Part shown: positions 1 to 37,458 of the stretch, one piece after another | Position numbering within the stretch: the first letter of the stretch is position 1 | Layout: every line of letters begins with the position of its first letter | Virus record (IMG/VR): IMGVR_UViG_3300029206_000002 | DNA from: a virus | DNA: 64,000 nt | Reading direction: 5' to 3' (one strand) | Program-made: the position numbers and the translations under genes | Notes under the pieces: generated by a model | Databases searched by the model: none | Told to the model about the DNA's origin: nothing | Seen by the model: the letters and a program-made list of their open reading frames with translations, nothing else

Positions 1-380
1 AATCAGGTAAAGTAGATAAGGTAGAAGGAAAAGAACTATCCAGTAATGACTTTACTGATGCATATAAAACTAAACTGGATGGTATTGCTGCACAAGCAAA
101 TAAATATGTTTTACCAACAGCTACAGCTGAAACTATTGGTGGAGTAAAGGTAGGAACAAATATTTCTTATAGTAATGGTACAATTAGTCTTAGTAAAGCT
201 AATGTGACTGGCGCATTAGGATATACACCTCCTACAGCAGATACTAAAGTGACTATAAATAACACTTTAACAAGTACTAGTACTACAGAAGCTTTAGCTG
301 CTGCTCAAGGTAAAGCTTTAAAAGATTTAATTGACGCATTAACTACAAGAGTTGCTGCATTAGAAACTCCAGCAGCTTAA
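1..380 (+). CDS. Tail fibre protein, C-terminal part of a gene that starts upstream of the window (frame 0). It ends at TAA 378-380.
   Basis: Open frame from the window start to TAA. It carries the repeat motif KANVTGALGYTPPTADTK, which recurs in the next gene, and a coiled-coil/fibre-like composition. Confidence 0.6.
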   Translation, partial: SGKVDKVEGKELSSNDFTDAYKTKLDGIAAQANKYVLPTATAETIGGVKVGTNISYSNGTISLSKANVTGALGYTPPTADTKVTINNTLTSTSTTEALAAAQGKALKDLIDALTTRVAALETPAA

Positions 381-394
381 TATAACAAATACAT

Positions 395-3300
395 ATGGTA
401 ACAAATAGGATAATATTTTTTGCAACATCTGTTCAACCTAATCCAGAAGAAATAGACTATTGGGTTGACTTATCTGATAATCCTTACGGTGGTAGCATTA
501 AATATTTCAATGGAACCGAATGGGTAAGGCTAGCTGCCTCTGGTGGTACACCTGACTTTAGCAACTACTATACTAAAACACAAGTAAACAAATTGCTTAA
601 TGATAAAGCAAACATTAGTGATGTAGATAGTAAAGTAGATGATGAAGAAGTAAAAGATGTAATAAAGGATATACAATTTAATACTTCAAATCCTAATGGC
701 ATTACTATGGTAATGTTTAAGTATGATGGAAGTAATGATTCTATATCTTTACCTATAGCATCTACTGGATCAGCTGGTATTGTCACATCTAAAGACTTCT
801 TAGACTTTGTTAAGCAGCATCAGTTGTAGGAACTTCATACTGAAATGATTGATACCTTTGCTGATATACGTGCAAAGTATTAGAAGAAACTCATTGCAGG
901 TTTAAACATTGAAATTGATCAAGAAACTAATGTAATTAGTGCATCTGGTGATCTAGCTGTACAATGGGATAATATTACTAACAAACCAGACTTTAAACCA
1001 GTAGCTACATCTGGTGATTACAATGATTTGATTAATAAGCTTAAGCCTGGTAAAGATGTTAGTATTAGTGAAGATAATACTATCAGTATTGCTATTGATT
1101 CAGATTCATTAGAACAGTCTTTAGCTACTTTACAAAGTAATATAGATAAGGAAGCTGCTACTGCTCGTGCTGCTGAAACTAAATTAGGCAACGATATAGC
1201 TACTGAGAAGAATAGAGCTGAATCTGCTGAATAGACTATTAGTACTAATTTACAGAATGAAATTAATAGATCTACTCAAGTAGACACGCAACATACTAAT
1301 GCTATAAACAAAGAAGTACAAGATAGAAAAGAAGCTATTGCTACAGAAGTTAGTGATAGAAATGCAGCTATCTTAGTAGAAACTAATAGAGCTAAGGCTA
1401 AAGAAGAAGAACTTGATAATAAGATTACAGATCATACTGCTGCAACTAATGCAGCATTAGCATTAAAAGCAGATAAGTCTGACACTTATACTAAGGCACA
1501 AGTAGATGCTAAATTATCTGGTGCTTATAAAGTAAAAGGATCTAGTACATTTGAAGCTCTACCTAAAGACAACAATGTAGTTGGTGATGTATATAATATT
1601 ACTAATGCGTTTAACTTAGGTGGTAAGCATTATGATGCTGGTACTAACGTAGTATGGACTGAAGATGGTTGGGATGCTTTATCAGGTTCATTTGATACTA
1701 CTGCTATTGAAAGTAGTATTCAAGAAGTAGCTGATGATTTAGCTCAAGAGATATTAGATAGAACTCAAGCTGATACTACTATCAATAACAATGTATCTTC
1801 ATTATCTAACAGAGTAAAAGTGAATGAAGATAAACTTACTATTATTAATGGTAATGAATCTACTACTGGTTCTATAGCTAATGCTATTAAACAGGCTAAA
1901 TCATATACAGATACTACTGTAACAGCTGAATAGACTAGAGCAGAGAAAGCAGAATAGAAACTAACTAGTGATTTAGCTAGTGAAATAACTAGAGCTAAAG
2001 GTGCTGAGTCTGCTAATGCTACAGCTATAGCAAATGAAGTAGAAAGAGCTACTGGTGTAGAAGAAGCTTTAAGAACAGATGTAGAAGATTTAACTGGTTA
2101 GGTATTAGTTCTTGAAAAGACTAAGGTTAATAAAGTTGAAGGTAAAGGTCTTAGTACTAATGATTATACTACTCCTGAAAAGAATAAACTAGCTGCTATA
2201 GAAGCTGAAGCTAATAAGTATGTATTACCTGCTGCTACAGCTAGTGCATTAGGTGGTGTTAAAATAGGTAGTAATATAACATTAGCAGATGGTGGTACTA
2301 TCAGTATAACTAAAGCTAATGTAACTAGTGCGTTAGGTGTAGATCCTACTACTACTTATGTGAAGAAAGCTGGCGATACTATGACTGGTACATTAACATC
2401 TGCATCTACTACTGGATCAATTGTATTTAAAGGCGTTGAAAATAGTGATATAACAAATATATACAAATCTGGTGGTAATTTATCTGAAGGTTTTGGTATG
2501 CATGCCAACGCTGATATCATTAATGGTTTGAGATTCAATTGGTATGATACATTTTGGTATATAGGTAATATTAGAGGTTCTGGTACAGAAAGTTACGGAT
2601 TTGGAATTGTAGATAATAATGATTAGATAGGTTTTAGGGTAACTACTGATGCAGTTTATGCAAATAAATACACATCTAGTGTATCTACCGGTAATGCTCC
2701 TATATCTGTTAAATCTACAACTATGTGTCCAAATCTGAATGCAGATATGGTAGATGGTGTTAATGTTAAAGATATTGAACATACATTATACATATCGTCA
2801 ACTGTTAAAAATTATTTAAAGATTTAGGTTAATCATAAGTATTTCCCCAATAGTTATAAAATTGTTGAATATTATGATGGCTACATTTATGTTTACTAGT
2901 TATTAATAAATGCTTATTCTCCAAAATTTACCGATCTTTAGCTCATTAGTGGAAAAGTACATACTGGAATTAAAACATTTTATGATTTGACTAAATGGTA
3001 TATAGAAACTACAGAATCTGGAATGAACATATACATATATCAACCTGAAAATAGTAATTTCAAAATATATGGAGTTATACATGGAGAACCTCAATCTCCA
3101 AATGTTCAATTTAGTGTTGTTAGTTCATTGCCTAGTAATGTAGTAAGTAGACATATTACATTCAATGTAACATCTTAGAATTTAGAAGAGTTTGATTGGT
3201 ATGGAGTATCTTGGTCAGAAACATCATCTAATCCAGATTGTATCCGTATTGGTAATATGGATATGCATAGATCATTGCCTATATAGAGTATGATGAAACC

Positions 3301-4408
3301 ATTTGCTTTTTAGACACAACCTTTGTATAAAGACTAGTTTGTTCCTTTGAAGGAAAACTTTACTGAAGCAATGTATGGGCATGTAAGTAATGGAGAAGCT
3401 GGATAGGTAGCATCTACAGTAAACGTTATGATTAAGATACCAGAATTTTGGTATGTCGATGATTATACTCCTGGTACAAAAACACACAATTTAAAAATAT
3501 GTCCACACGCTAAACCAGGATGGCATCACCACAAAGAAGCATATGTTAGCGCATATGAAGCATTCAACTTTGGTAATAAAGGTAGATTAATAAGTATGAA
3601 AAGCGTTGTTCCTACTGTTAATTTTACCAGAACTAATGGCAGAACTTGGGCTAGAGCTAATGGATTTGACGGAGAAGCTAAATGGAATCTTTATACATAT
3701 GAAGAACATAGAGCTATATGTCATTTGTTCTTAGTGGAATATGCTACTAGAAATTCACAAAAGGCTGTTAATACTGAACTAACTCCTGAAGGATTTAGAC
3801 AAGGTGGGTTAGGTTCTGGTTGTACTACAGGAACAGCAACTATCAACGGAGCTCAAACTTGGTCGTTTATTCCAACTGGAAGTTCTGATAGTTTAGGTAG
3901 TGGTTCTGGTGAAGTTACAGTAACTATACAATAGACTGATTCATCTGGTTCTAATACTTCTACTATTACACGTAAATGTAATAGATATAGAGGAATTGAA
4001 AATCCATTTGGTCATATATGGAAACACACGGATGATATAATTAGTATATACGAAGGCGACTGGAGAACTTATTATAAGTCTATAAAACCTGATCAATTTG
4101 CCACTAACAAAAATAATAGTTATAAACCTTTAACATCAGCAGCAGTTGTAACTGGTTATAAAACCGAAATTAGAGCTACTCCTACTTGTGATTTCTTCGC
4201 TGAAGCTTGTACTAATGGTTCAGAAACTACATACTGGTGTGATTATAACTGGGATAATACTGATACTTCAGAACACTGTTTGTTAATCGGTGGTGGCTCT
4301 GGCAGTGGCGGCGGGACGGGTCTGTTCGCTCTTCGTTCCGTTGCTGGGGTTGGTTATTCCGATGCTGATATCTGTTCTCGATTAACATATCTCCCGTGGG
4401 CGGAGTAA
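395..4408 (+). CDS. Large tail fibre or tail spike protein of 1,338 codons, read through about 16 in-frame TAG codons.
   Basis: ATG at 395. Track ORFs at 395, 1028, 2360, 2987 and 3428 all share frame 2 and are separated only by TAG. Read by eye, there is no TAA or TGA until 4406-4408. Fibre-type repeats are present (SKANVTSALGVDPTTTYVKKAGDTMTG, coiled-coil EQSLATLQSNIDKEAATARAAE). The C-terminus ends with a Gly-rich linker, GGGSGSGGGTGLFALRSVAGVGYSDADICSRLTYLPWAE. Confidence 0.75.
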
Positions 4409-4793: not shown

Positions 4794-5336
4794 GTGTTGA
4801 GTAGAAGTTTATATATAATGAATCTTGCAAGACGTATATTTGCTAATGGATATCAATCTATAGTAGGTTGGTTAACAGGTATGGCAACTATACTAGCACC
4901 AGCTGCACCATTAATAGGTGTATCGTTTCTATTCATAATATTAGACTTAATCTATGGGTATAAAGTATGTAGACAAGTAACTCACAAGAATTATTTTGAA
5001 TCTGGCAAGTTTTGGTCTACTATTGAGAAACTAGGATTTGCAGCTATAATGATAGCTGGATTTACTTTATTAGATAAGTTTATATTTATGACATATGCCG
5101 ATCTGGTGTTAGCTAAAGTTGCAGCAGGAGCAGTATGTTTTGCAGAAATAATATCATTATTAGAATCTAGGAAAGCATTAAAACCTAATTCATTAGTTAC
5201 AAGACTCTTCACAAAGATTATAAAGTCGAAAGCAGAAAAATATTTAGATGTAGATATAACAGACATCTTAGAAGAACAAAATACTATTACAAATGATACC
5301 AATACTGATAAGTCTAGCAAAAAGATTAACAAGTAA
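4794..5336 (+). CDS. Membrane protein with several transmembrane helices, a holin-like lysis candidate. The start is GTG at 4794 or ATG at 4818.
   Basis: Track ORF with hydrophobic segments (ILAPAAPLIGVSFLFIILDLIYGY, FAAIMIAGFTLL, AAGAVCFAEIISLL) and a charged C-terminal tail. It has no in-frame TAG. Confidence 0.45.
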   Translation: MLSRSLYIMNLARRIFANGYQSIVGWLTGMATILAPAAPLIGVSFLFIILDLIYGYKVCRQVTHKNYFESGKFWSTIEKLGFAAIMIAGFTLLDKFIFMTYADLVLAKVAAGAVCFAEIISLLESRKALKPNSLVTRLFTKIIKSKAEKYLDVDITDILEEQNTITNDTNTDKSSKKINK

Positions 5337-5370
5337 CATTATCGGTTGGTTTAAAAGAAATTACAAAGCA

Positions 5371-5949
5371 ATGGCAGTGATTATCATTATGATTCTCGCT
5401 GCCATTTGTTTTTATTAGAATAACTAGCTAGATAAGAAGAATAGAGAACTAGATAGAGTAACTAATAACTATCTTTACTATGAATAGCTAGCAACATAGT
5501 AGAAGAATGATAATAGAGTTCTATAGCTTACTCTAGATGAATTTAAAGAAACCAAAGATAGCTTAATACAAGAAGTACAAGCTACAGTAAAGAAATTAAA
5601 GATCAAAGAGAAGGAGTTGAAATAGATACAGATATAGGAGTAGAAAGTAGTACACGATACTACAATAGTAGTTAGATCAACTGACTTTAAAGTAGAAATC
5701 AAACCAAACAATTTGACATCAATCATAATAAATAAAAGAGATACGCTCCTAACACATAGTATCGACATTCGCAATACACAATCACTATTTATTCATACTA
5801 AAAAAGAATATAAGCGTAATTATAAGAATTGGTTCTAGCGACTCCTTCACTTTGATTTTAAAAAACGAACTATTTATAAGTACCAAATTGATAACAGTAA
5901 CAAGTTAATCAATGTAGAAAATACTAGAATAATAGATTTATCAAAATGA
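5371..5949 (+). CDS. Protein with an N-terminal transmembrane helix followed by a long coiled coil, possibly spanin-like. It has 12 in-frame TAG codons.
   Basis: Stitched frame 1: MAVIIIMILAAICFY then a Q/K/E-rich heptad region. It stops at TGA 5947-5949, overlapping the next ATG in an ATGA arrangement. Confidence 0.5.
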
Positions 5950-6581
5950 ACTTTATAAGTCGAATAATTAAATCAATTAATGCAATGAGAGAAAGACTGA
6001 AAATAGAGCGTCATGAGGCTATGTATGGTCCACACTTTAATGAAGAATGTGCACTAAAAGCAGTCTCAAAGATGGAAAACGAAGATGGCTCTCGTGGAGA
6101 ACATTGGAGTTTAGAAGAAACTACTTCAATCGCTAACCAGTACGGAATCAATCTGAAAGGTGAGAAATACAACAAGTATGATTGGTACGTTGCTCTCAAT
6201 ATGATACGTTCAGACTATTATCGTGCAGTTGTTACTATGACAAGCAGTGATCACATTAAGTACTTTGTAGAACTAGCAAAAGCTTGGTTGAATGATAAAG
6301 ACATAGAAGAAGGAAAGATGTGGTATTACTATTGCTATATTATGTGTGATAAATTGCGCAAAGAAGCTAAGACGATGTTAATGCTTGAAGACGATGAAGA
6401 TGAAGAGCATGAGTATCGTTACGCTCGTAGTGGTAGAGGACGTGGAAGAGGTAGAGGAGGAAGAATGACTCGCTACGGTTATGACTATGACGAAGACGAT
6501 GAATATTTAGATCGTGAACGTGAAGAGGAAAGAATGCATAGATATGAACCTATGTATGAAAGAAGAATATCAAGATATTAA
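5946..6581 (+). CDS. Hypothetical protein of 211 aa with an RG-repeat and an acidic C-terminus.
   Basis: Intact track ORF ending at TAA. It contains SGRGRGRGRGGR. Confidence 0.5.
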   Translation: MNFISRIIKSINAMRERLKIERHEAMYGPHFNEECALKAVSKMENEDGSRGEHWSLEETTSIANQYGINLKGEKYNKYDWYVALNMIRSDYYRAVVTMTSSDHIKYFVELAKAWLNDKDIEEGKMWYYYCYIMCDKLRKEAKTMLMLEDDEDEEHEYRYARSGRGRGRGRGGRMTRYGYDYDEDDEYLDREREEERMHRYEPMYERRISRY

Positions 6582-6595: not shown

Positions 6596-7522
6596 ATGAG
6601 AACTATGTACGAACCTGAAAAAATTTTAGTACAAAACGCTGGTATAGATCCAGGTGTAGCTGCACTTTTGCAGAATGCAAACAAAGGTAATATGGACCCT
6701 GCTGCTCTTATGGCTATGATGAACAACGGCGGTTTCGGTGGAAACGGCGGTTGGTGGTGGATTTGGATCATCCTAATCTTCTTCTGCTGGGGCGGTTTTG
6801 GAGGCAACGGTTTTGGTAGAGGTAGTGATGATGCTAGTCGTCTTGCTTCTCAGTTAAATACTGATACTAATACAAGTCTGTTAATGCAGGCTATTCAAGG
6901 TAACAAAGATGCAATAAGCACTTTGTCTAATACTTTGAGTTGTGATATTAACGCTGTACAGACAGCTTTAAATACTATTAATACTAGCGTAAGTCAGATT
7001 GCTTGTGATACTAAATTAGCTAGCTGTGAAGTAATTAATGCTATTACTTCTGGTAATGCTAACTTGGCTTCTCAATTAGCTAACTGCTGCTGCCAGACTC
7101 AACGTTCAATTGACTCTGTTAATTTGAACTTGACTCAAATGAATGCAGACAATAGACTGTCTATCTGTCAGCAAACTAATACTTTGCAGAATGCAATCAC
7201 TGGTGGTTTCAATAACTTAATGACAGATAATGCTAGTAAGTTTAATGTAATTGGTGCTAAGATAGATGCGCAGACTCAAATGATTAACGATAAATTCTGT
7301 CAACTTGAAATGCGTGAAATGCAGAATAAGATTGACACATTGCGTGCTGAGAAGTCAGCTCTTGAATTAGGTCTGTCTCAATCTGCTCAAACTGCTAATA
7401 TAGTAAATCAGTTGCGTCCGTGTCCAGTACCTGCTTACTTAACTTGTAACCCATTCGGATGTAACGGTGGATTCACTGGTTACGGATACGGATATAACGA
7501 CGGTTGCGGTTGTAGTTGCTAA
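6596..7522 (+). CDS. Hypothetical membrane or structural protein of 308 aa with a Gly/Trp-rich transmembrane segment and Cys-rich termini.
   Basis: Track ORF containing GGFGGNGGWWWIWIILIFFCWGGFGGNGFG and ending in CNPFGCNGGFTGYGYGYNDGCGCSC. Confidence 0.5.
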   Translation: MRTMYEPEKILVQNAGIDPGVAALLQNANKGNMDPAALMAMMNNGGFGGNGGWWWIWIILIFFCWGGFGGNGFGRGSDDASRLASQLNTDTNTSLLMQAIQGNKDAISTLSNTLSCDINAVQTALNTINTSVSQIACDTKLASCEVINAITSGNANLASQLANCCCQTQRSIDSVNLNLTQMNADNRLSICQQTNTLQNAITGGFNNLMTDNASKFNVIGAKIDAQTQMINDKFCQLEMREMQNKIDTLRAEKSALELGLSQSAQTANIVNQLRPCPVPAYLTCNPFGCNGGFTGYGYGYNDGCGCSC

Positions 7523-7539: not shown

Positions 7540-7959
7540 ATGTTTAATCCTTTCTTTAACCCTTATCGTGTAAGACGTATTGATCAAGGTGGTATACCAA
7601 CATTAGATACTATATTCTCTAATGTAGATACTACTAACAATACTGTTACTTATGGAATATGTCCATTTCAATGGAGACAATTACCATGCAGAGGTTTAAT
7701 ATTGTTAAATATTAACCATACCGCTACTGGTGCAACAGAAGGATCATTAGTATCTGTAGCTACTTCTGTTAGTTCTAGTTAGGTATCATCTAATCCGACT
7801 AGTGTAAATACTAATAGTGGTAAAGCATTACTAAACGGTTCTGGTGATTAGATGCCAACAGAAGAAATTTCAACGGGTAATAAATATCTAATATACTATG
7901 ATAAACGTACTGGAGTATTTCAGACTGTAAATCATATTGTAGCACCAGCTGCTGCTTAA
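7540..7959 (+). CDS. Hypothetical small virion protein of 140 codons with 2 in-frame TAG.
   Basis: An SD-like aaggagg lies 8 nt upstream of ATG 7540. Frame 1 continues through TAG 7780 and 7849 to TAA 7957-7959. Confidence 0.5.
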
Positions 7960-7968
7960 TAAAAACTT

Positions 7969-7992
7969 AGGGCTACCGTAAAAGGTAGCCCT
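7969..7992 (+). terminator. Perfect 9-bp stem-loop (agggctacc gtaaaa ggtagccct) directly after the stop codon.
   Basis: Inverted repeat read from the sequence. No U-tract follows. Confidence 0.35.
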
Positions 7993-8043
7993 ACTAAAAC
8001 CAATTCAATTATGTTATTTAGTCAATTAAAAATAGGAGATCAC

Positions 8044-8589
8044 GTGCACGTATTGGAAGTTCTAGGAACTTTTAAAAAGACTACTGTTTATAGTCTTGGT
8101 TCTATTACCTAGGTTTCAAATCCTTATGATGAAGCTTTGCCGCAAGGTTAGTTTCCAATACCAGGATAGAACAGACGTAAATTAGTCGATGTATTTATTA
8201 GTTGTAATGGAGAATCTAAGAAACTATCAGTACCAGCTGAACGTTCAATAATCAACGATACTTCTATAGGACTTACTGTTGCTACCAACAAAGAAGAAAT
8301 AGCTAATATGGTTAGATAGAACTACAACGAATTCAAAGCTAAAAAAGAAGCAGCAAGTAAGTACGATGAAGAAATGGAGAAGTGTAAAGATATTCTAGAT
8401 CAACTAGAAGCACAAGTAGAAGTTCCTACAGTAACTAATACTGTTGATAATAGTAAAGAAATAAATGATTTAAAGAATGATGTAGCTGATATTAGGAAGA
8501 TGATAGAAGATGCTAAGAAGATGTTTATGGGAGGATTCCCAAAACCACCAATGCCACCTATGCCTAATGTACCAGCTCCAATGAAATAA
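8044..8589 (+). CDS. Hypothetical protein with a C-terminal Pro/Met-rich tail, 4 in-frame TAG, and a probable GTG start.
   Basis: Frame 1 is open from 8029 to TAA 8587-8589. An aggag motif lies 6 nt upstream of GTG 8044. The track ORF 8374..8589 is the C-terminal piece. Confidence 0.4.
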
Positions 8590-15942: not shown

Positions 15943-15943
15943 T

Positions 15944-25700: not shown

Positions 25701-28700
25701 TAAAACAATATCCATATTTAAAAGATGCTTCTAAACAAGAAGTAGAAGAAGCTCTTGCTGAAGAATTCAGACAATATATGCTAAATGAAACCAAACCATC
25801 TATAGCATATAGAATTAAGAAATTATTTAATGCAATACTTAAAGTATTAGGTATTACTAGGAATGGAGATTTAGTAAGAACTTTATTTAATAAAATACGC
25901 AAAGGAGAATTTTCAAAATATAAACCATCTAAGTCCACATTAGAAGATTTTGAAAAAAGATTTGGCGGTACATTGTACTATTACGTTCCAGGAGTAGAGG
26001 ATAAAGAATTAAAGAAAATGGCTTCTATAGCAGATGCTACTACTTTCTATGCAGTAGTAGACTCTTTAAATGCTACAGTAATGGATACATTTAATATTAG
26101 TAGTATAGAAGATTTACAGAGCTTACCTAAAAAGATTAATGATATATTCGATGATATTCTAACTACCAACTTAGAATTAGGAATGTATGATGAATCCCAA
26201 GAACAACTTATCAAAGATGTAATCAACAACAAAGAAGTATTCAAGAAGCAAATAGACGATTACTTAAGAAACTTTAGTATTATTAAAAAGAATACTGAAG
26301 AATCAGAAGAACAAGAAAGAGAAGAAAGAGAACTTGGAGATAATCCTGATAATACTTGGGATAAAGAAAGTTATACAATAAGTAAAAAAGCTAATGTGGC
26401 TTTCAAAGCAAAACTATTCTTTTATTCTATACCTAAAACTAAATATGAATTTGATCCAGAAACAGGTAATAAATACTTAGTAGAAGAGGAGGATGACTTG
26501 TTGATGACTACTAGATCTGAAGATTTTAACGTTGTGTGGAATAAGATATTAGAGAATCTGTGGAATGTTGAAAGTTATTTAGACCTAGTAGATAAGTGCT
26601 ATAATCTTGGTAAGGTAGATCCGTTCTTTATGACTGTATATAATAAGTTAACTTCAAAAGATGATCCTATTGATGAAGTCACTTAGACTCAAATATTAAA
26701 TACAGTTAAAAGTGCAAAAAATAGTTTAACTGCTATAATTGTAGAAAGAAAGTAGATACCTTTTACGTAGAGAGGATCTGATGAACAAATAGAATATGCT
26801 ACACAAGAATATTCTAATAAATTAAAATGGAGAATTCAGAATTCTGATGTATATAGAAAGATAAGTAGATTACCAAAGAAATGGTCGCAATAGTTCTTCT
26901 TGTCAGATTTAATTGATGTTAATGAAGATGGTACTAGAACTATAAATCAAGATAAGTTTCATTCTGCTGTGTGGAAACATAAAATATTAATAGATAATGT
27001 ATTAAAAAAGAAAGATAAAACTTTGGATGATTATATTAAAGTTAGATCTAATTTTATAGATATGTGTAATAATCTATCTATTAATATGGATGATTTAGCA
27101 TTAGACTATTTACTTACTAATGGAACAGGTTAGCCTAACATGCAATCATTTGAGAATTTCTGGAGATCTACAAATGCTAGTACTTCTTTAACTAAAAGTA
27201 TATTAAATAATATTAATATTGCTGCAATCAGAGGTACAAGTAGTATAAAATCTAGAAGTGGAGAAACTGCTAGAACATTTGATAGAATATTTACTAGTAG
27301 AAAACCAGATGCTTAGATAAATCTAATGGCTATAGCTTGGGGTAGAACACACCCATCTCCAGAAGAATTTAGTGTAACTGGAGCGGATGGTAATCTAGTA
27401 TATCCTATTACAGAGAATAATTATATGTCAGACCAAATAAGATGGTTGAAATATAATTTAAATGGTAAGAGAGAATTATTAGGTAAAAATCCTTACTCTG
27501 CAAATTCTTTGTTGTTACAGTCTATAAATAGTAATGCTGATTTAATTAAATTAAATACTTATCTAAACTTAGAAGAGAATCTGCAAAACACTAATCGTGA
27601 TTACTTTGGTATATCTCCTATAGAGGATTACTTATCTAAAATGACATTTGGATTTAATAATCACTTATTTTGTCCTACTATGTCTGATAAAAAGACATGG
27701 CACACTATAAGTGGTATTCAAATGGTCAAGGATTTCTTACCATCTACAGCTATCACTGATTACGAATACAATGAAAACGGAGATATAACTAGAGTTATAT
27801 TTTAGGATCAAAAGAGAAGATTCTCAGATAGAACTTTAAATATATTCAAAGGATATTTAAGAGATGAATATAATGCTATATAGAAGTATTTTGCTACTAA
27901 ACAAAGTGTTATAGATAATCCCAATCTATCTGTTGGTAATTACTATGGTAGTAAAAAAGGTAAATACGCTGATGGTAATGGTGGAAGATTTAGATATTTT
28001 AATAAGATAACCATTAATGGTGATACTTATAATTTAAATGAAATTCTAGCTAAAGCAGAATATTCTAATGACTCACAATCTATACAAGATATTCTTAATG
28101 TAATCAAATAGGCATTAGATAACGATACTGTAATTAAGGAAGCTATCAATGATTTATTAGTAGGTTATGTAAATAATGAAATATCAAAAGCTGTAGAGTT
28201 AGGTGTAATAGGTGAAGACTTAAGTAATAAGTATATACCTATAAACTTTGTAGAAGAATTTGAAAAAATAAGTTCTAAAACTGATAGTAGAGATAAAGGA
28301 ACAGATGTGATATACTCTATCATAGCTTCACATGCCATCAACAGTGCGATTTCTACTATAGAAATAGAGAAATGTTTTACTGGAGATCCAGCATTATATA
28401 AATGGCAAAAAGAACTTATGGTATATAAGCCCAATGATGATTCATTTGTGCCTGTTATATCAGATGAAAGAACATTAGAAGCTTGGATAGATAAACATGA
28501 CCCAGATGGAGATAAATCAAGTTATTCTGCTTATTATATGATAACTGGTAGAGATGTAGATAAAATTAAACGTCTATCTTCAGTATTGTCTACTGGAACA
28601 AACTTGAGAACTAAATGGGGAGATACTAAGGATTAGGAAGATAGAAGTGATTCTAAATTCCAAGTATTATAGTTATCAGATAATGAAATAGGATCTACAG

Positions 28701-31700
28701 TATATGATACATTATATAGTATGTTTAGAAAATCCTTAATAAAGGATATGTTCCAAAAAGAGTTTGGTGTTACTGATTAGCAAGCATTAAATGCCGTTAA
28801 GGACGATCATGCTATAGAAAGTACATTAGGTAGATTACGTAAAAAGAATCCAGATGCTATTAAGTTTATTGAACAACAAGCTAAAAATAGCGCTAAACCA
28901 TATGCTGACGGAGAAATTAATCAAGCAGATGCTGCTGTTTACATCAGACCAGAGTTCTATAAGAGATTGATGAAGTCTTTAGGAGAATGGAGTCCTGAAA
29001 TCGAAGAAGCTTATAATATTATGGAGTCTGATGATAGCTGGTTGAGTGATACTGAGAAGTATCAAAAAGCAATTAAAGCTATCACACAACCTCTTAAAAT
29101 GGTTTACTTTGGTGATCACTTTGATTAGACTCTTGGTATGAATGTAAACACATTTGATAAAATGGCTTTATTCCCACTATTTAAGACTTTTGCTAAAGCT
29201 GATAATAAATATTTATACGATCGTATGAATGATGCTAGTAAAGGTTATATAGACATGGTAGCGTTTGAATCAGCTATTAAAGTTGGTGGTAGAAAGAAGT
29301 TATCATTCTATAAAGATGGTAAAGTAAACTTATCTGAATTAACATCTAATAGTGATATAGACGGCATTTCTGGTAAAGGATTGGCAACATATACTTAGGA
29401 TTTAACTCAAATCAGATTACAGTTAAATACTGATCCACACGAACACCTTGAAAGATCATTTGGTACACAAGCTATTAAAATTGGTTTTGCTAATGTAGTA
29501 GATACTCGTACTTATGGAGAAAATAAAGGATTAGCTGTAAAAGGTTCTGAAATTAAGAAGAACATTATGGATGCTATTAACTCACTATCCAGAATAGGTT
29601 AGAATAAAATAAGAAAAGAGTTCTTTACTAACGGCAAAGTAGATAATCGCAAAATAGTAAATTATCTTTAGAGATAGGCTACAAATTCAGGTATGTCTGC
29701 TGAAATAATTGCCAATTTAACAGTTGATGAAAATGGAAATATTATAGTACCAATTGAAGCTCAAAGTATTAGAGATTGGATTCAAACTAAGATAACTTCT
29801 TTTGTCAATAAAGCAGTAGTAGATGTAAATACTCCCGGTGGTTCTGCTATTCAGATGTCTTCATTTGCATATGAAGCTGTTGGTAGAAGTGTAAAAACTG
29901 ATGCAGAATTAGGTTCAGCTTTTAATCAAGGAAAGAAATTAAAATTCTTAGCTAAAGAAGGTCATATGCAAGTTATACTTAGTGAAAACTTCTTTAGAGA
30001 TATATTACCAGAAGAACTTAAAAGTGCAAGTTTTTATAGTAAACGCAAATGGTTAATTGATAATGGTATAATAGGTAGTAGAATGGTAGACGGTGTAGAA
30101 GTAGAATCTAAACCTTATGGTATAGGATATCGTATTCCTACACAGGGTTTGTCTTCCATGTTCTCATTCCAAGTAGCTGATATTATGCCAACTACTATTG
30201 GTGATACAATCATAGTTCCGGAAGAATTTACAGCTATGACTGGTTCTGACTTCGACGTTGATAAACTTTATCTAGCTACATATACATATAAAGATGGTAA
30301 AAGAGTAAGTTCTGACGAAAAATCGGAACAAGGTTACGTTAATAAGTTGCTAGATAATTACTCATTAGTACTGACTGACTTTACCAATATTGCTGAAACT
30401 AGAGCTTCTATTGATACATTAACAAAGATTCTTCAAAAGCAGATTCTTCCAATAGTTCAGCCAAAAAATACTGTAGAAGTAAATCCTATGTATGAATTAG
30501 CTCCTTCTTTCTAGCTTTCTAGAAAGACAGAGTATACTGGTGGTAAAGCTGGTATTGCTCCATTTGCACTTAACTCTACTAATCATGCGTTAACTCAATT
30601 TACTCACCTATGTATCAATTATTCTAATGCTAATAGATATAACTTAGGTCAGTTAGATTAGGTATATGGAGAAGATGATCAACGTATTATGGACTGGTTG
30701 TCAGCATTGATCAATGCTCACGTGGACGTTGCCAAAGACCCATATATTATGGCTTTGAACGTAAACTCTATTACTTATAATATGACCTCTTTGCTTATCA
30801 GAGGTGGTAAAGGTGAGAATACTTTCTACTTCTTAGCACAACCTGCATTGCGTAGGTTTACTAAAGAAATGTTAGAAAGTAAAGGTATAATAGGTGCAGA
30901 AAAAGGAATAACTGAAAGAGATAAACTTAAATCTATAGCTAAAGAATATATGACTTCTTTGAGAGAAGCGATTGTATCATTAGATGATAGTGATTCTAAT
31001 AAAGCAAAGTATGCACAGTATTATAATAGTTTAGCTAGTGAATATTCACTTCCATCTATAGAAGGATATGATGCTGTTGAGGTCAATTATAATGATGTGT
31101 TTGATAAGAAAGTAGCATCTGAAGCGTTAAAAAAACCAAAAGAAGTCAATGGATTATATCAACAAGTCATATCTATTAGAGCTTATCAAGATTTGTCTTC
31201 AGATACAGAAGTTTTATCAAATTTAGTTCAATTATCATAGATTGATACTAAGAAATTTGGTAATACCTTACCGTTACAGTTAAATTTCAAACGTAGATTA
31301 AATAGATATATAGATAATTATCAAAGTAGGTTCTATATAAATGGAGCTGATAACATAGAAAAACCTATAAACTATTACTTATCTTCTACATTCCTTAAGT
31401 AGAAACTAGATGCTGGTATAAATACTCCTAGAATATTATTAAGCGGTCAAATTATAGAAGCTACAAAAGGATATAAGACAATATTTAATGCTGCATGTGA
31501 CTTCTTTTTAGGTAATTCTTCAGATAAAAATACTGTAGCTGAATTATCAAAAATATTAACTACTTCACTAAGAACTAAAGCTGTAGTAAATGCAGTTGAG
31601 GACTTTAATATTAGTGATAAGAAGTTCCTTAATATGTTAAGAGGACCTAAAAGTATGGCTAAAAGGTTAACTTAGATTAAAAATGATTTAAGAAAACGTA

Positions 31701-33049
31701 ATGATTTACCAGCAATTGCGTTCAATGGTCATATTAAGAATGAGTTACTTAACTATCTACAAGAATATGCATCTGATGGTACTAACTAGAAATATGATAG
31801 AATAGTAACAGCAGATAACGCTTTAACTAATACTGCTACTTATGAAAACAGATTATTGTCAGCATATCAAGATCTACTAGACTGTGAAGATGAAGGTATA
31901 AGAAAGTTTGCTAATAGATTGGGTGTATATGCTTACTTAACTAGTTTCGATAATAGAAGTACTGATTCATTCTTCGATGTAATAACTACTGCTTGGAAGA
32001 AACAAAAAGGTTATTCAGATGCAATTAAAGCTGCTATAGAAATACTTAATAATGATAAATTAGTAGGTATGGATTATTTTGGTTTTAATTCTGAAAACAT
32101 GCAGAATAATAACTTTACAGAGTTATTTACAGAAATAGCTAGAAATGCTTATAGAAATGATAAAATAGTTAAACCATATCAGTTAAGTAATTATGATAAT
32201 AAGTATGGTACTCTAGTTCAAATAAAACCCGAATCTAAGCCAATACCAGCAGTATTTAGTAGTTGGAGAGCTAATCAACCGTTTATTAAGATTCAACTTA
32301 ATCCTAATGACATCAATAGTTATATATTGTATCAGAAAGTAGCAACAGTATATCAAACTGATGAAAATGGTGATCCAGTAAAAAATACAAAACAATCTGT
32401 ATATAAAATTATACCAGCTTTAGGTACTAAAGATGATAGAAAAGTTTACTATGAATATCAAAAACAATCTGGGGAACAATCTGCATTTGAAGAAAATGCT
32501 TTACCTAAAGAAGCTATTTGGAACAATGGACAAATAGAACAATTAGTCTAGAAATTTTTTGAACCTATGACAAATAAAAATCATACCACTTTAGTGTATG
32601 AATCTTCAGATGCTATAGTAATTAATACTGTAGAAAAACAAGAAATAGTTAGCTTTGAAGAGCCAGAAGTTACAACAGTAGGTTCAGATTTAGAAGCATC
32701 TAATGAAATACATAATACAGAAGATACTTAGTCTTCTACTATTTATGGAGAAGTAGACGAACAAATTTCTACAATAACGGTAGGACAAGATGATTCTGTT
32801 ACGTTATCAGATATGCAAGTAGATATGGAAGATGGAACTTAGACTATAATAAGTGACGATGTATTGAATTTTACAGAAATAACTGATGATGTGTTTGGAG
32901 AAAGTCCGTACTTTGATTCTATATTAAATGCTGGTATTACTCAGTATGAATAGGTACAAGATATAATTACAGATATGAATACTGGGACTGATACTGTTCA
33001 AGATATGAAATTTAATGATGAAGCTTATAAAAACTGTAAAGGTAAATAA
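19790..33049 (+). CDS. Giant ORF of 4,420 codons with more than 70 in-frame TAG and no TAA or TGA. It is a candidate multi-domain ejected cargo protein containing a virion RNA-polymerase-like DxDxD motif (DFDVD at 30247-30261) and an HExxH motif (HEGFH at 25627-25641).
   Basis: All 15 track ORFs from 19871 to 31856 are in frame 2. An eye translation across the whole span found only TAG interruptions. It has an acidic disordered linker around 22.8-23.5 kb. The RNAP assignment is an inference from the motif and from how crAss-like phages are organised. Confidence 0.65.
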
Positions 33050-33051: not shown

Positions 33052-36000
33052 ATGATTATATGTCCAAATTTTAGTGATAAGAATGTCCTAAAAGAATTTA
33101 ATGAATTAAAAGAATTGGTAGGCGAAATTGGCGCCTACCATATCTGGAACGAAAACAATGGTAATCCTATTGATTAGACAAAAGATGGTAAGCCATCTAA
33201 GCTATTTTCAGACTTACTGTAGTATTATAATGGAGACAGAGCTGCTGCTATAAAAGGAAGAGCTAAAACCTTTACAGAAACGTTTAGTACGTGGTTTGAA
33301 GGATCTACCGCTATAGATGAAAACGGTGAACCTATTATTACAGAATTTGATGGAGATAGAGTGTTTGTTTCTGATCCAGAATATGATTCTACTAAAGAAT
33401 TAACAGAGTTAGATACATCTAAAATTAAATCTGTTGATAATACTGGTTCTTTTTCCGCTTCTGACAGTAGAATAAAAGGATCAGAGCTAGATGAATCATT
33501 GTAGTATTACTTAACTAATAGTCTAGATGAAAGGTATCAACAAGATGTACAAGAATATATAGAAGCATATAGATAGTATTTTGATAAATATGATTATGCT
33601 ACTAAAGAAAATCTTGAGAAAGAATTGGAAAAAGTAATACAGAAAATACACGATGGTCTTAAAGCTAGATTATATACTCTGAATAAAAAAGATACTAATG
33701 TTACAGATGAATTTAAAGCAGCTTTAACATTACAAATATCTGAATTAGAAAATAGAACAGTAGATAGGATTTAGAACATAACTAACTTTATATATAGTAC
33801 TAAATATGATATACTATCTACTATAAGACAAATCAGAGATGTAGTAAATGGAGTGTAGGATAAAATGACACTAAAGTAGTTGTTAGATCTAAAACAAGAT
33901 TTCTTTAATTTCTATTGTCCAATGTTAGATGAATGTGTTAATACTTTATCTGCTACAGAGGAATATAAATATATAGTTGGAGAAAATCTATATAGAAATT
34001 TATTAAAGGAAGCAAAAAGAATGCAGACTATTCTAAATGTAGGAGCTAACAATGTTAATAACATGATTACTAAGTAGTCTGCTGAAGAAATTAGAAGAAT
34101 TGGTATATCTGTTAATAGTCCAACTATAGAAAATTATATATAGGAACATCAAGAAACAGTAGGTAAAGATATATTAGCTATTACCGCTTGGGTAGGAGCT
34201 GGAGATAAAATTAATGACGAAGCTATTAGAGCTTTATTTCATATAACTCAAAATGCAGAATTTGAAGTTAATAGAGCTACTTACGAAAAGTATAATAAAC
34301 TAACAGAACTGTTAAAAAAAGCTGGTACTTTTAATCAAAAAAAATTAGTAGAGCTTGATGAAAATGGTTTACCTACTGGATATCTAGTCAGAAAAAGAAA
34401 CTATGGTAGATTTAATAATGACTATAAACAATTCTTAAAGTAGCTCAGAAGTGATTTAGGCATGTTAGATGTAGATGATTTACGTTCTGTAAATCCCACT
34501 ATACGTACAGAGTATAATAAAAGAAAAAACAAATGGTTATCAGAACATTGTGAAAGAAAATATACTCCTGAATACTATGAACTATTTAACAATCTATCGC
34601 CTTTAGCCGCTGATGCTAGAGAATTAGTACAAATCAAAATACACAAACTACTAGATACTGTAAAAGACGCTAATGGATTCTATGACACAAGTAAGTTATC
34701 AGAAGAAAATCAAAGTAAACTAAAGGATTTATATTTAGAAAAAAAATAGTTAGCTAGTATATATGGTATAGATGGAAAATTAAAACAAGGTGAAGAATAT
34801 GAAATAGCTGTAGAACTAGCTGCATTAAATGATAAGTTGTCTAAAGGTATGGTTTTAAAATCAAATAAAGCATTATTTGATAAAATCAAGGCTGAAAAAA
34901 AAGCAAATTTATCTGAAGCTCAGTATCAAAGATGGTTATAGTATAATTCTAGAGATGAATATACTCAAGAATTCTATGATGATCTTGCTAAAGTAGAAAG
35001 ATCTGAAATAAACAATGAATCAGATAAAAAGCTATATGAATAGTTGCAAGAAAGAAAAAGAGCTATACTTAAACAATTTAGAGATGATAAGACACATGAA
35101 ATTGAAAAGTTAATACCAGGAGTTGCTCAAGCTGAATTAGATAAAATAGATGTAGATTTATATAGGATAAGAAAAAGAAACGGTAAAAAGAAAACTACTG
35201 GATTAAAATTTAACGATATAGCTAAAGTGATACCGTCTAAGCTGTTCTATAAACTTAGAGCTGATGCCATTGCTAATGGAACTTTAGCAGAATTTGAAAT
35301 GACACATTGTAATAGAGATAGTCAAGGTAATATATATCCTAAATCTTATCTTACAACAGTTGTTCCAGTGAAAGAAAAATATATACTTAAAGAACAGCCA
35401 TCTATTTACTTTTCAGAGGTAGATTAGAATTCTCCATTTGTTAATAAGAACTACAAACCAGAAGTTGAAGACTAGGGAGAATACTATTTGCCTAAATTAG
35501 AACTATACGATAATTCAGAAGCATTTAATAAAGTATCTTCAAATGAAGATTTACATGAATTATACAAAGAATGTGTGAATACTCTTAAAGAATCAAATAG
35601 CAAACTTACTAATCTTACTAATTTAAGTTCATATAGATTGCCACAAATATCAGGTTCTATGTGGAGATATGTTAGAGCTAGAGGTTTTGAAGGTTTTAAA
35701 GAATATTGGAAAGATAAAGTATCTACTAGAAATGATGATACTGGTTTAAATGATGAAGTAGTAGATACTGGTACAGATAAATTATATTTTGTTCCACAGA
35801 ATTATGTTAAAAGTCTGGATGATCCTTCTACTATTACAGCTAATACTGTTGGCTCTATAGTAGAGTATTTTAAAATGGCTGAAAACTTTAGAATAAAAAG
35901 TGAACTCAAACCTAAAACAGAAGCTATCCTACAATTTATAGGTAATCGAGACGTCAAAAGTAAGTACAGAGGAAGGAGTAAAAAAGGGCAGGAATCTAAT

Positions 36001-37458
36001 ATATATAAGTTTGCTAAAAGTTTCGTAGAGATGAATATATATGACATTAAGACTAAATCTGCTATATGGGATATCAAAGAAAGAGATTATTCTATACTAG
36101 GATTTAAAGGTCATATAAAACCTAGAAAAGTTAATTTTACTAAATTAATGCTAGGTTTAAAAGCATTAGGAACTACTGTAAATCTAGGTTTAAACATTAT
36201 ATGTGCTACTACGGGTTTTTTTACAGCAGTCTATAATGATATAATTAATTCGCTTTCTGGTAGATATTATAGTTTTAGTGATAGTCTTAATGGTGCTAAA
36301 GCATTAATTGTAGACTTATTTAAAAACAATTTTAGTTTACTTAGTGATTATCATAATAGTACATAGATGAAGCTAATGGAATATTTTCAAGTAGGTGCTG
36401 AAATAAAAACAGATAGACTTAATCTATCTACTTTTCAAAAACAAATAGCTAGAAACTGGGCTTTTGGAGTATACTCTTTAAGTGATTATGTCGTAAAGGG
36501 TCATATACTAAATTCTGTTATGTACAACTATAGATACGTAAATGGAGAGTTTCTTAATAGCGAAGAATTTAAACGTAAATATAGTAACGACGAAGTAATG
36601 TTAAATCAATGGAATACATTTAGATCCTCTAGAGATTTAGTAGAGTATAAAAATGGAAATATCGTAACCAAAGACCCTGCTTATCAAAAAGCCTGGGATG
36701 CTAAAAAAGAAACCATTGGTAACACTGCTAGAAATTTAGCTCAATCTGCTGATGGTTAGCTTACTCCACTATAGAAAACTATGTTAAGTAGTAATATTAT
36801 AGGAAGTTTAGTAATGATGCATAGACAGTTTATGCCTATTATACTTCAAGAAAGATGGGTATAGAATAGACAATGGGATTATAGTTCTCAAAGATATAAA
36901 GAGGCTTTGTTTAGAGTTCCTTTTAGTATTATTTCTGCAATAAGAAGAGATACTAGGAATATTAGTTTATGGTAGAAGTATATGTAGAATTCTACATACG
37001 ATTAGCGTAGAGTAATAAGACAATTATCTTTAGAACTAATAGGTGTACATATATTGCATTTCTTCTTAATGCCAATAGCAAAGGCTTGGGCAGATGATGA
37101 TAAAGATAATATATTAAAACAATTATTAGCTTTTGCTTTAGTAAGAACAGATTTTGAAACTATGATGTCTTCTACCCCTTGGGCAATCCAAGACGCTATC
37201 TCAACTATCAAAACTCCATTCCCTATTTATAGTTATTATGATAACTTTTCTGGATTAATTTCTACTGTACCAGCATGGGTACATAATCTGATTAATAATG
37301 AAGATAAAAAAATAGATAGAGGCGCTTATAAAGGTTTTTCTCCTACTTTTAAATTTGGAATGAAAATAACTCCGTTTAAAAATATATGGGAATTATAGGA
37401 TATACCTTCTAAAAGAAGATATTACGAAACTCAAATTGCAAATAGAGATTCTGATTAA
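33052..37458 (+). CDS. Giant virion protein of 1,469 codons with about 25 in-frame TAG.
   Basis: ATG 33052. Track ORFs at 33880, 34462, 35044, 35488, 36367 and 37054 are all in frame 1. It ends at TAA 37456-37458. Confidence 0.65.

What the first reader, a model, noticed from the sequence alone, without database searches (positions are those of the whole stretch)
1..37458. Module-specific TAG stop-codon reassignment. Late + strand genes are read through more than 150 in-frame TAGs, while the early minus strand uses the standard code.
Every + strand gene is fragmented only by TAG and ends at TAA or TGA. Consecutive track ORFs share a frame across 13 kb. On the minus strand, long genes such as polB, the helicase and the primase have no internal TAG, and at least two genes (50812 and 55796) terminate at TAG. 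This is the crAss-like/Lak-style late-gene recoding switch, probably TAG to Gln. In lytic phages it is thought to couple virion-gene expression to a phage suppressor tRNA and to block premature or host-driven translation.
Basis: partly seen in the sequence, partly recalled or inferred. Interest (0 to 1): 0.85.

Follow-up and report, generated by a model that had tools for sequence, protein, structure and literature searches.

The report
Known crAss-like phage TAG-to-glutamine recoding
This is a gut crAss-like phage whose late (virion and lysis) genes read the stop codon TAG as glutamine while its replication genes stay compatible with the normal code, a published phenomenon; the one addition is that a single DNA-cutting enzyme gene inside the replication block also carries a TAG.

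Summary
On the + strand, 1-37458, 17 contiguous genes carry 169 in-frame TAGs, have no internal TAA or TGA, and all end at TAA or TGA. Coding density rises from 42% to 97% when TAG is read as sense.

TAG is glutamine by three independent tests:
- Swaps with strain relatives are mostly TAG<->CAG/CAA.
- In two standard-code relatives, TAG sites align with Q 26.8% of the time, against 26.3% for ordinary Q codons.
- The likelihood for Q beats the next residue by about 80 nats.

The window is 95-97% identical to crAss-like phage cr6_1 (Suoliviridae). Its RefSeq record already reads through TAG and lists a CUA-anticodon tRNA just upstream of the terminase gene. That tRNA lies outside this window.

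The phenomenon is published (Yutin 2021, Borges 2021/22, Peters 2022), so the finding is already known.

Two corrections:
- Five + strand genes have no TAG at all.
- The minus strand is not purely standard. A DUF1064/endonuclease-I-like Holliday-junction resolvase (40788-41168) has a TAG inside its conserved domain. In 80 related phage loci this gene carries a TAG in 74, while eight neighbouring replication genes show 0 TAG in 134,645 codons.

This gene-specific TAG requirement did not turn up in the recoding papers found by one keyword search.

The parts
3..380 (+). 3' end of a late gene that starts upstream of the window. 0 TAG, ends TAA.
395..4408 (+). Tail protein, 1337 aa, 16 in-frame TAG, ends TAA. 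The C-terminal third is only 85-90% identical to relatives.
4818..5336 (+). Holin-family membrane protein, 172 aa, 0 TAG (only 3 Gln codons).
5293..5949 (+). Spanin-like or lysis-regulator-like protein, 218 aa. 10 TAG against 5 CAA/CAG; significantly TAG-enriched (p=0.002).
   Evidence: cf.
5946..6581 (+). 211-aa acidic/basic-rich protein, 0 TAG (only 1 Gln codon).
6596..7522 (+). 308-aa membrane, coiled-coil, Cys-rich protein (phrog_16490). 0 TAG among 21 Gln codons (p=0.001). The cr52_1 ortholog has 2 of 22.
7540..8589 (+). Two small late genes: 7540-7959 with 2 TAG and 8011-8589 with 4 TAG.
8853..9518 (+). Virion structural protein (phrog_9863), 221 aa. 9 TAG against 6 CAA/CAG (p=0.016).
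9515..9982 (+). 155-aa late protein (phrog_12177), 4 TAG.
9969..10847 (+). GIY-YIG/HNH homing endonuclease, 292 aa, 4 TAG. This segment is absent at this site in cr6_1 and MT835473.
10844..11773 (+). Tail tubular protein (phrog_33740), 309 aa, 6 TAG.
11764..15942 (+). Stabilization / virion structural protein, 1392 aa, 17 TAG. Full-length homologs at 35% identity exist in standard-code cr50_1 and cr1_1.
15908..19710 (+). Two late genes: 15908-17848 with 4 TAG and 17848-19710 with 10 TAG.
19724..33049 (+). Giant 4441-aa gene with 60 TAG. Residues 3059-3523 are homologous to the phi14:2 gp66 virion RNA polymerase (DFDVD motif). It is a single gene in all Suoliviridae examined.
33052..37458 (+). 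Last late gene, 1468 aa, 23 TAG, ends TAA. It converges on the minus-strand module.
37493..63414 (-). Replication/early module. 32 standard-code ORFs (PDDEXK nuclease, Mre11-like phosphoesterase, AAA ATPases, primase, Sak4-like AAA_24, DnaB-like helicase, DNA polymerase, sigma-factor-like and others). 0 internal TAG in 7,010 codons.
40788..41168 (-). DUF1064 / T7-endonuclease-I-like PD-(D/E)XK nuclease, annotated in relatives as Holliday junction resolvase, 126 aa. Internal TAG at codon 33 (41070-41072). No start codon lies downstream of it, and the Pfam match spans residues 12-98.
42585..43382 (-). DUF7192 protein ending at TAG. The Pfam profile (278 of 281 positions) ends at the TAG, so here TAG acts as a true stop.
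50812..51531 (-). 239-aa ORF ending at TAG, with a second TAG 7 codons later. The RefSeq record of cr6_1 reads it through.
55796..56194 (-). 132-aa ORF ending at TAG. The RefSeq record of cr6_1 reads it through by 23 codons.

Best explanation
The window is about two thirds of a crAss-like phage genome (Suoliviridae, Afonbuvirus faecalis lineage).

**What the sequence shows**
- In the late module (tail, lysis, structural proteins, and a giant protein containing the virion RNA polymerase), TAG is a sense codon for glutamine. It supplies 29% of all Gln codons there.
- Termination in that module uses only TAA and TGA.
- In close relatives, decoding is provided by a phage tRNA with anticodon CUA. 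It sits directly upstream of the terminase gene, at the head of the late operon, about 11 kb beyond the right end of this window.

**What is inferred**
- The tRNA is probably charged by the host glutaminyl-tRNA synthetase. Its acceptor stem (U1-A72, G2-C71, G3-C70) and its U35 resemble tRNA-Gln.
- Replication genes contain no TAG, and some end at TAG, so the host can translate them with its normal code from the start of infection.
- TAG-containing genes can give full-length protein only once the suppressor tRNA has accumulated. This makes TAG a post-transcriptional timer for virion and lysis functions.
- The same device appears to be applied gene by gene. The branched-DNA nuclease (resolvase) inside the replication block carries a TAG. 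It would therefore be withheld until late, when DNA must be resolved for packaging.
For: **Coding**
- There are 169 in-frame TAGs and no TAA/TGA in 12,246 late codons. Coding density rises from 42% to 97%.

**TAG = Gln**
- TAG<->CAG/CAA account for 7/9 and 17/22 of the codon swaps against cr6_1, and 9/11 and 16/19 against MT835473 (before start refinement).
- In standard-code cr50_1 and cr1_1, TAG sites align with Q 26.8% of the time. Canonical Q codons do so 26.3% of the time, and background Q is about 3%.
- The log-likelihood for Q is -551, against -631 for the next best residue, E.

**tRNA**
- tRNA(CUA) has a canonical cloverleaf. It lies 15 nt upstream of the first late-strand gene in cr6_1 and 14 nt upstream of terL in cr52_1.
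- An identical 46-mer core occurs in 14 IMG/VR contigs. Four of them also share an exact 58-mer with the window's right end, and one contig shows both features contiguously.

**Module specificity**
- There are 0 TAG in 7,010 early codons (P about 1e-42).
- In cr6_1, the apparent internal TAGs of early genes sit in the last 15% of the ORF in 7 of 9 genes.
- The DUF7192 Pfam profile ends at the TAG stop of the gene at 42585.

**Gene-level bias**
- The spanin-like gene has 10 of 15 Gln codons as TAG. The cr6_1 endolysin has 5 of 6, and the cr6_1 major capsid protein has 0 of 14. This matches.

**Resolvase**
- The Pfam domain spans the TAG.
- 74 of 80 related loci have at least one TAG in this gene.
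- Eight control early genes have 0 TAG in 134,645 codons. With starts extended in the same way, 7 control genes have TAG in 0 of 422 instances, against 70 of 76 for the resolvase.

**Literature**.
Against: - The suppressor tRNA is not in the window. Its presence in this exact genome is inferred from relatives that are 93-97% identical.
- Nothing in the sequence shows timing, charging identity, or how competition with release factor 1 is handled. No release-factor or synthetase gene was found among the 37 minus-strand proteins scanned.
- The tRNA differs from E. coli tRNA-Gln at the discriminator base (A73) and at positions 10 and 38. This comparison rests on my own knowledge of E. coli and was not tested.
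- Two of the three TAG-terminated early ORFs have too few homologs (none for 55796; two weak partial matches for 50812), so whether they stop or are read through is unresolved. In one of them a second downstream TAG is CAG in a relative.
- In the resolvase, the residue aligned with the window's TAG is K in most homologs, not Q.
Confidence: 0.88

Rival explanations
1. The whole genome uses code 15 at all times. TAG is never a stop, which is how the RefSeq record of cr6_1 is annotated, and early genes merely happen to avoid it.
For: The RefSeq CDS features of cr6_1 read through every TAG, including those at the equivalents of 50812 and 55796. A second TAG in the 50812 extension is CAG in MT835473.
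Against: - In cr6_1 early genes, the 'internal' TAGs lie at relative positions above 0.85 in 7 of 9 genes. This fits true stops followed by short spurious extensions.
- The cr52_1 early module shows the same pattern.
- The DUF7192 profile is complete at the TAG of the gene at 42585.
- There are 0 TAG in 134,645 codons of eight early genes across 80 loci. That is selection for standard-code compatibility, not chance.
Confidence: 0.12
2. TAG is decoded as an amino acid other than glutamine, for example pyrrolysine (ARAGORN's label for the tRNA), Tyr, Lys, Glu, Leu or Trp.
For: ARAGORN names the CUA tRNA 'tRNA-Pyl', but only from its anticodon. At the resolvase TAG site most homologs have K.
Against: - The substitution profile at 209 TAG sites matches Q. 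It beats E by about 80 nats and K by about 95 nats.
- Strain-level swaps are overwhelmingly TAG<->CAG/CAA.
- Proteomics in other crAss-like phages found Q.
- No pyl genes are annotated in cr6_1.
Confidence: 0.02
3. The primary role of the suppressor tRNA is as a weapon against the host, corrupting host and defence proteins by read-through. On this view the TAGs in late genes accumulated neutrally once the tRNA was present and have no timing role.
For: Yutin et al. propose this. TAG supplies only about 29% of late Gln codons, and most genes show no significant bias.
Against: - TAG use is non-random by gene. It is enriched in the spanin-like and endolysin genes and absent from the major capsid protein and from 6596-7522.
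- An N-terminal TAG is kept in the resolvase in 72 of 80 loci, at varying codons, while the neighbouring early genes have none. Neutral drift does not predict this.
- The two ideas are not mutually exclusive.
Confidence: 0.15
4. The in-frame stops are pseudogenisation or assembly and sequencing errors in a degenerate metagenomic contig.
For: None beyond the raw presence of stop codons.
Against: - Only TAG occurs in frame, never TAA or TGA, across 12,246 codons.
- 144-152 of the TAGs are conserved in two independent assemblies from other countries.
- Gene order and gene lengths match standard-code relatives.
Confidence: 0.01

Closest known systems
Uncultured phage cr6_1, Afonbuvirus faecalis (NC_055894.1; Suoliviridae, Bearivirinae)
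   Same: It is 95-97% nt identical over most of the window. It has the same gene order, the same TAG-laden late genes (144 shared TAG positions), the same TAG at codon 33 of the resolvase, and tRNA(CUA) at the head of the late operon.
   Different: - The window lacks the roughly 1.1-kb reverse-transcriptase gene of cr6_1 (between 4493 and 4542).
- The window carries three genes (6383-8507) and a DUF7192 + AAA_5 pair (42465-44804) that are missing in cr6_1.
- It has a homing endonuclease at a different site.
- It has a DNA-polymerase segment only 65% identical.
- The RefSeq annotation treats TAG as sense genome-wide.
TAG-to-Gln (code 15) recoding of late genes in crAss-like phages (Yutin et al. 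2021 PMC7886860; Borges et al. 2021 bioRxiv 10.1101/2021.08.26.457843; Peters et al. 2022 PMC9523058)
   Same: The shared features are: recoding confined mostly to late structural and lysis genes, a standard-code replication module, a phage suppressor tRNA, TAG bias in the spanin/lysis genes, and the Delta group (= Suoliviridae) being named explicitly.
   Different: The retrieved passages of Borges et al. describe the replication machinery of crAss-like phages as standard-coded. None of the four main recoding papers returned by one keyword search contains the word 'resolvase'. The TAG-bearing resolvase seen here may therefore be undescribed.
Lak megaphages and Agate/Jade phages (stop-codon recoded gut phages)
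   Same: They work alike: a stop codon is reassigned in late and lysis genes, with suppressor tRNAs.
   Different: These are unrelated lineages. Their genomes are about 540 kb or 127 kb, and some use TGA to Trp. Their recoded modules are scattered. Some encode RF1/RF2 or a tRNA synthetase, and none of these was found here.
Classical amber suppression by tRNA-Gln(CUA), E. coli supE (own knowledge)
   Same: A CUA-anticodon tRNA with a Gln-type acceptor stem inserts Gln at UAG, in competition with RF1.
   Different: Here the suppressor is phage-borne, obligatory for about 170 codons in essential genes, and placed at the start of the late operon.

Membership tests
TAG-to-Gln late-gene recoded crAss-like phage (code 15) | Conserved late genes are interrupted only by in-frame TAG and become full-length when TAG is read as sense. 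| tested here: met
   169 TAG and 0 TAA/TGA in 17 genes. Coding density rises from 42% to 97%. Gene lengths match standard-code relatives.
TAG-to-Gln late-gene recoded crAss-like phage (code 15) | TAG positions correspond to glutamine in homologs. | tested here: met
   X to Q is 26.8%, against Q to Q 26.3%. The likelihood is best for Q by 80 nats. TAG<->CAG/CAA swaps dominate.
TAG-to-Gln late-gene recoded crAss-like phage (code 15) | The phage encodes a suppressor tRNA with anticodon CUA. | tested here: inconclusive
   None in the window. It is present in cr6_1, in cr52_1 and in 14 IMG/VR contigs. Four of those contigs share the window's right-end sequence, and the tRNA lies about 11 kb beyond the window.
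TAG-to-Gln late-gene recoded crAss-like phage (code 15) | Replication/early genes are compatible with the standard code. | tested here: met
   0 TAG in 7,010 codons of 32 ORFs. The single exception is the resolvase, 40788-41168.
TAG-to-Gln late-gene recoded crAss-like phage (code 15) | Peptides show Gln at TAG sites. | not testable with these tools
   Shown only for other crAss-like phages.
Crassvirales / Suoliviridae | Sequence identity to classified members, plus the hallmark giant protein containing the virion RNA polymerase. | tested here: met
   95-97% nt identity to Afonbuvirus faecalis. Match to 6VR4 at E=5.5e-32. Stabilization protein homologs occur across Crassvirales.
Lak megaphage | A genome of about 540 kb, Lak-clade marker genes, and scattered recoded modules. 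| tested here: not met
   The closest complete genomes are 97-103 kb crAss-like phages with a single contiguous recoded module.
DUF1064 / T7 endonuclease I-like PD-(D/E)XK nuclease (the gene at 40788-41168) | A Pfam match above the gathering score that covers the catalytic D...E-x-K region. | tested here: met
   PF06356 at 48.3 bits (cutoff 24.7) over residues 12-98. PF05367 at 24.3 bits, which is below its cutoff of 29.1. The PDF...ExK residues are invariant in 10 homologs. Nuclease activity was not tested.

The most novel reading that the evidence does not exclude
Stop-codon recoding in Suoliviridae may be used gene by gene, not only module by module.

The DUF1064/endonuclease-I-like Holliday-junction resolvase sits in the middle of the otherwise TAG-free replication operon. 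It almost always carries a TAG: 74 of 80 loci, usually at codons 2-12 and in some cases directly after the ATG. In this window's lineage the TAG is inside the domain.

The nuclease mRNA could therefore be made with the replication genes, while the protein would appear only after the suppressor tRNA is expressed. That would protect replication intermediates until packaging.
Probability: 0.55. Interest if true: 0.45.

Novelty: already known. Interest (0 to 1): 0.25.

Why it matters
For annotation, the finding matters in practice. Under code 11 more than half of the late module is lost, and under a blanket code 15 early genes receive false C-terminal extensions, as appears to be the case in the RefSeq record of cr6_1. 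Biologically it re-confirms a published mechanism in a known species, so it adds little on its own. The resolvase exception may be new. If real, it is the cleanest natural case so far in which a single enzyme is held back by a recoded stop codon independently of its transcription unit. It also gives a simple experimental handle: swap TAG for CAG in one small gene to test the timer hypothesis.

Tried and rejected
- **Suppressor tRNA in the window.** ARAGORN and Rfam found only tRNA-Ile(GAT). MT835473.1 has no tRNA at all, because it is a partial record.
- **Finding the window's own full contig.** A marker across the RT-deletion junction hit one 61-kb IMG/VR contig without the tRNA region. A right-end marker linked the lineage to tRNA-bearing contigs, but only at 93-98% identity.
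- **Homolog test for the TAG-terminated ORFs at 50812 and 55796.** tblastn found only the two strain relatives plus two weak partial hits. The strain alignments have too few differences to decide.
- **DGR-type repeats next to the tail gene.** No template/variable repeat pair was found in 1-5400.
- **The 1.85-kb ORF-free stretch, 53943-55795.** All three stop types are abundant in all six frames. There was no Rfam hit at E<=1, only weak repeats, and no similarity to the equivalent gap in cr52_1.
- **HGT from a standard-code phage as the reason 6596-7522 is TAG-free.** Rejected, because the gene and its two neighbours are syntenic across Suoliviridae, and it is cr6_1 that lacks them.
- **Shared ancestry of TAG sites with cr52_1.** There is only a mild excess of shared positions: 12 TAG/TAG against 25 and 14 mixed. 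I did not pursue this.


Full report
**What the window is.** The window has 31% GC. It is 97% identical over 52 kb to MT835473.1 and 95-97% identical over most of its length to NC_055894.1, 'crAssphage cr6_1'. That phage is Afonbuvirus faecalis, in Crassvirales, Suoliviridae, Bearivirinae, with a 97,422-bp genome. Mapping shows that the window holds the distal 37 kb of the late operon on the + strand and about 26 kb of the replication/early module on the minus strand. The head of the late operon (terminase, portal, capsid, endolysin) and a second early block lie outside it.

**Checking the observation.**
- With only TAA and TGA treated as stops, + strand 1-37458 becomes 17 back-to-back ORFs.
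- With ATG starts these hold 12,246 codons, 169 in-frame TAGs (1.38%) and no internal TAA or TGA. All end at TAA (13) or TGA (4).
- ORF coverage rises from 41.9% under code 11 to 96.9% with TAG as sense. On the minus-strand part it only moves from 77.1% to 81.4%.
- The '13 kb in one frame' is a single gene, 19724-33049 (4441 aa, 60 TAG).
- The same giant gene is intact under the standard code in cr50_1 (4775 aa) and cr1_1 (4559 aa). Residues 3059-3523 match the virion RNA polymerase of phage phi14:2 (6VR4, E=5.5e-32).
- On the minus strand, 32 standard ORFs (7,010 codons) have no internal TAG. About 97 would be expected at the late rate.
- The polymerase, DnaB-like helicase and DnaG-like primase are confirmed by PHROG and Pfam hits.
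- Three ORFs end at TAG: 55796, 50812 and 42585.

**Which amino acid.** Three tests agree on glutamine.
1. *Strain comparisons.* Where the window has TAG and cr6_1 or MT835473 does not, or the reverse, the partner codon is CAG or CAA in 7/9, 17/22, 9/11 and 16/19 cases. The few other swaps cluster in the fast-evolving C-terminal part of the tail gene.
2. *Standard-code relatives.* cr50_1 and cr1_1 use the standard code. In tblastn alignments at about 35% identity, 209 TAG sites align with Q in 26.8% of cases. The window's own CAA/CAG codons align with Q in 26.3%, and the background Q frequency is about 3%.
3. *Likelihood.* Using substitution profiles taken from the same alignments, the log-likelihood is -551 for Q, -631 for E and -646 for K.

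TAG supplies 28.7% of late Gln codons. CAG is correspondingly depleted, at 14% of late Gln codons against 33% in early genes.

**The decoder.**
- The window has no suppressor tRNA, only tRNA-Ile(GAT) at 61762-61836.
- cr6_1 has a 74-nt tRNA with anticodon CUA and a canonical cloverleaf at 25904-25977. It lies 57 nt after a block of small genes that carries one annotated in-frame TAG (gp96) and 15 nt before the first gene of the late strand (homing endonuclease, then terminase).
- cr52_1, from a different subfamily, has the same arrangement, with the tRNA 14 nt upstream of terL.
- The 46-nt core of the cr6_1 tRNA occurs exactly in 14 IMG/VR contigs of 12-102 kb. Four of these also carry an exact 58-mer from the window's right end.
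- In one contig the two fetched stretches abut. This places the tRNA about 11 kb beyond position 64000.
- The acceptor stem (U1-A72, G2-C71, G3-C70) and U35 resemble the identity set of E. coli tRNA-Gln as I know it. A73, A10 and C38 do not. Charging is therefore inferred, not shown.

**Is the early strand really 'standard'?** Mostly, with one clear exception.
- The RefSeq record of cr6_1 reads through all TAGs. In its early genes the 'internal' TAGs lie in the last 15% of the ORF in 7 of 9 genes. cr52_1 shows the same pattern. This is what true TAG stops followed by short spurious extensions look like.
- For the gene at 42585, the DUF7192 Pfam profile ends (position 278 of 281) exactly at the TAG.
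- For 50812 and 55796 too few homologs exist to test this, none for 55796 and only two weak partial matches for 50812.
- The exception is 40788-41168. Under code 11 this is a 357-nt 'gap'. With TAG read through it is a 126-aa protein matching DUF1064 (PF06356, 48.3 bits, residues 12-98) and, more weakly, T7 endonuclease I. Relatives annotate it as a Holliday junction resolvase.
- Its TAG is codon 33 (41070-41072). It lies inside the domain and upstream of the invariant PDF...ExK residues. No ATG, GTG or TTG follows it. The TAG is present in all three strain-level assemblies.

**The resolvase pattern is general.**
- In RefSeq relatives the ortholog has TAGs at other positions. cr52_1 has them at codons 7, 41 and 114, cr109_1 and cr53_1 at codon 4, cr115_1 at codon 10, and cr125_1 at codon 9. 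The standard-code relatives cr1_1 and cr50_1 have none. cr4_1 and cr7_1 also have none, although both are recoded.
- I fetched 80 IMG/VR loci around this gene with 10-kb flanks.
- The late genes in those flanks carry 2,454 TAG in 140,794 codons. Eight neighbouring early genes carry 0 TAG in 134,645 codons (522 gene instances). The resolvase carries 95 TAG in 10,195 codons, with at least one TAG in 74 of 80 loci.
- In 72 loci the TAG is at codons 2-12, several of them as ATG-TAG. No alternative start lies between it and the conserved (V/I)(R/K)NAT motif. 14 loci have TAGs in the body of the gene.
- When the same start-extension rule is applied to the controls, seven genes have TAG in 0 of 422 instances, against 70 of 76 for the resolvase.
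- The four main recoding papers returned by one keyword search do not contain the word 'resolvase'.

**Gene-level TAG bias in the late module.**
- The spanin-like or lysis-regulator-like gene 5293-5949 uses TAG for 10 of 15 Gln codons (p=0.002).
- The structural gene 8853-9518 uses TAG for 9 of 15 (p=0.016).
- In cr6_1 the endolysin uses TAG for 5 of 6 Gln codons and the major capsid protein for 0 of 14.
- In the window, 6596-7522 has 0 of 21 (p=0.001).
- Borges et al. report the same kind of bias (spanin, amidase, a nearby tail-tube family) and use it to argue for control of lysis timing.

**How it most likely works.**
- *Shown:* TAG is a Gln sense codon in late genes. Early genes avoid it. 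Close relatives carry a CUA tRNA at the start of the late operon.
- *Inferred:* early genes are translated by the unmodified host machinery. The tRNA then accumulates, and only after that can virion, lysis and resolvase proteins be completed. The virion RNA polymerase is itself a TAG-rich late product. By analogy with phi14:2 (my own knowledge) it would be packaged for the next round of infection.
- *Unknown:* how RF1 competition is overcome. No release factor or synthetase was found among the proteins scanned.

**Comparison with what is known, and novelty.**
- Yutin et al. [quoted passage not shown]
- Peters et al. 2022 confirmed Q at TAG by proteomics in two crAss-like phages.
- Borges et al. 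describe the late-gene/lysis model.
- The nearest RefSeq genome is already annotated with TAG read-through and a 'tRNA-Gln'.
- The finding as written is therefore correct but already known. The resolvase exception is the only part that may be new.

Noticed in passing
window 40788-41168 (-), TAG at 41070-41072; loci L059-L138: The DUF1064/endonuclease-I-like resolvase inside the TAG-free replication module carries an in-frame TAG. The same gene has at least one TAG in 74 of 80 related IMG/VR loci, usually at codons 2-12 and sometimes as ATG-TAG. Eight neighbouring early genes have none in 134,645 codons.
   Followed up: yes
window 53943-55795: A 1.85-kb stretch has no ORF longer than 85 aa in any frame and all three stop types throughout. 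There is no Rfam match, and there is one perfect 27-nt direct repeat 101 nt apart (54012 and 54113). cr6_1 and cr52_1 have an unannotated gap of about 2.1 kb at the equivalent place, but the cr52_1 gap shows no sequence similarity to the window's.
   Followed up: partly
window 62326-62453 (-) and 63612-63757 (-): Rfam gathering-level matches to RAGATH-7-assoc RNA (139.6 bits) and RAGATH-9 RNA (122.6 bits), in intergenic gaps of the early region.
   Followed up: no
window 4493-4542: cr6_1 and MT835473 carry a gene of about 1.1 kb here, annotated as a reverse transcriptase, next to the tail gene. The window has only a 49-nt G/T-rich stretch in its place. The adjacent tail-gene C-terminus (2665-4493) is the most divergent part of the late module, at 85-90% identity. 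No DGR-type repeat was found.
   Followed up: partly
L001 16949-18415 (cr6_1 major head protein; outside the window): The major capsid gene of the recoded relative has 0 TAG among 14 Gln codons (p=0.014), whereas the portal has 11 TAG and the terminase 14. This hints that the most highly expressed late gene avoids the recoded codon.
   Followed up: partly
window 42465-44804: A DUF7192 + AAA_5 (MoxR-like ATPase) gene pair is present here and in MT835473 but absent from cr6_1. The DUF7192 gene ends at TAG.
   Followed up: partly
window 49365-50402: A segment of the DNA polymerase gene is only 65% identical to cr6_1, while the flanks are 93-97% identical. This suggests a recombinant polymerase segment.
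   Followed up: no
window 9953-10807: A GIY-YIG/HNH homing endonuclease gene with 4 in-frame TAGs is inserted between two structural genes. It is absent at this site in both strain relatives. cr6_1 has a homing endonuclease one gene further on.
   Followed up: no
L053 22172-22552 (cr52_1); window 61843-61949: ARAGORN and RefSeq call a permuted tmRNA in the early region of cr52_1. About 110 nt of it is 76% identical to window sequence next to tRNA-Ile. No tmRNA is called in the window itself.
   Followed up: no
L001 26326-26853 (cr6_1 gp96; outside the window): This is a second early-block gene with a mid-gene TAG (codon 69 of 175) in the relative. Its function is unknown.
   Followed up: no
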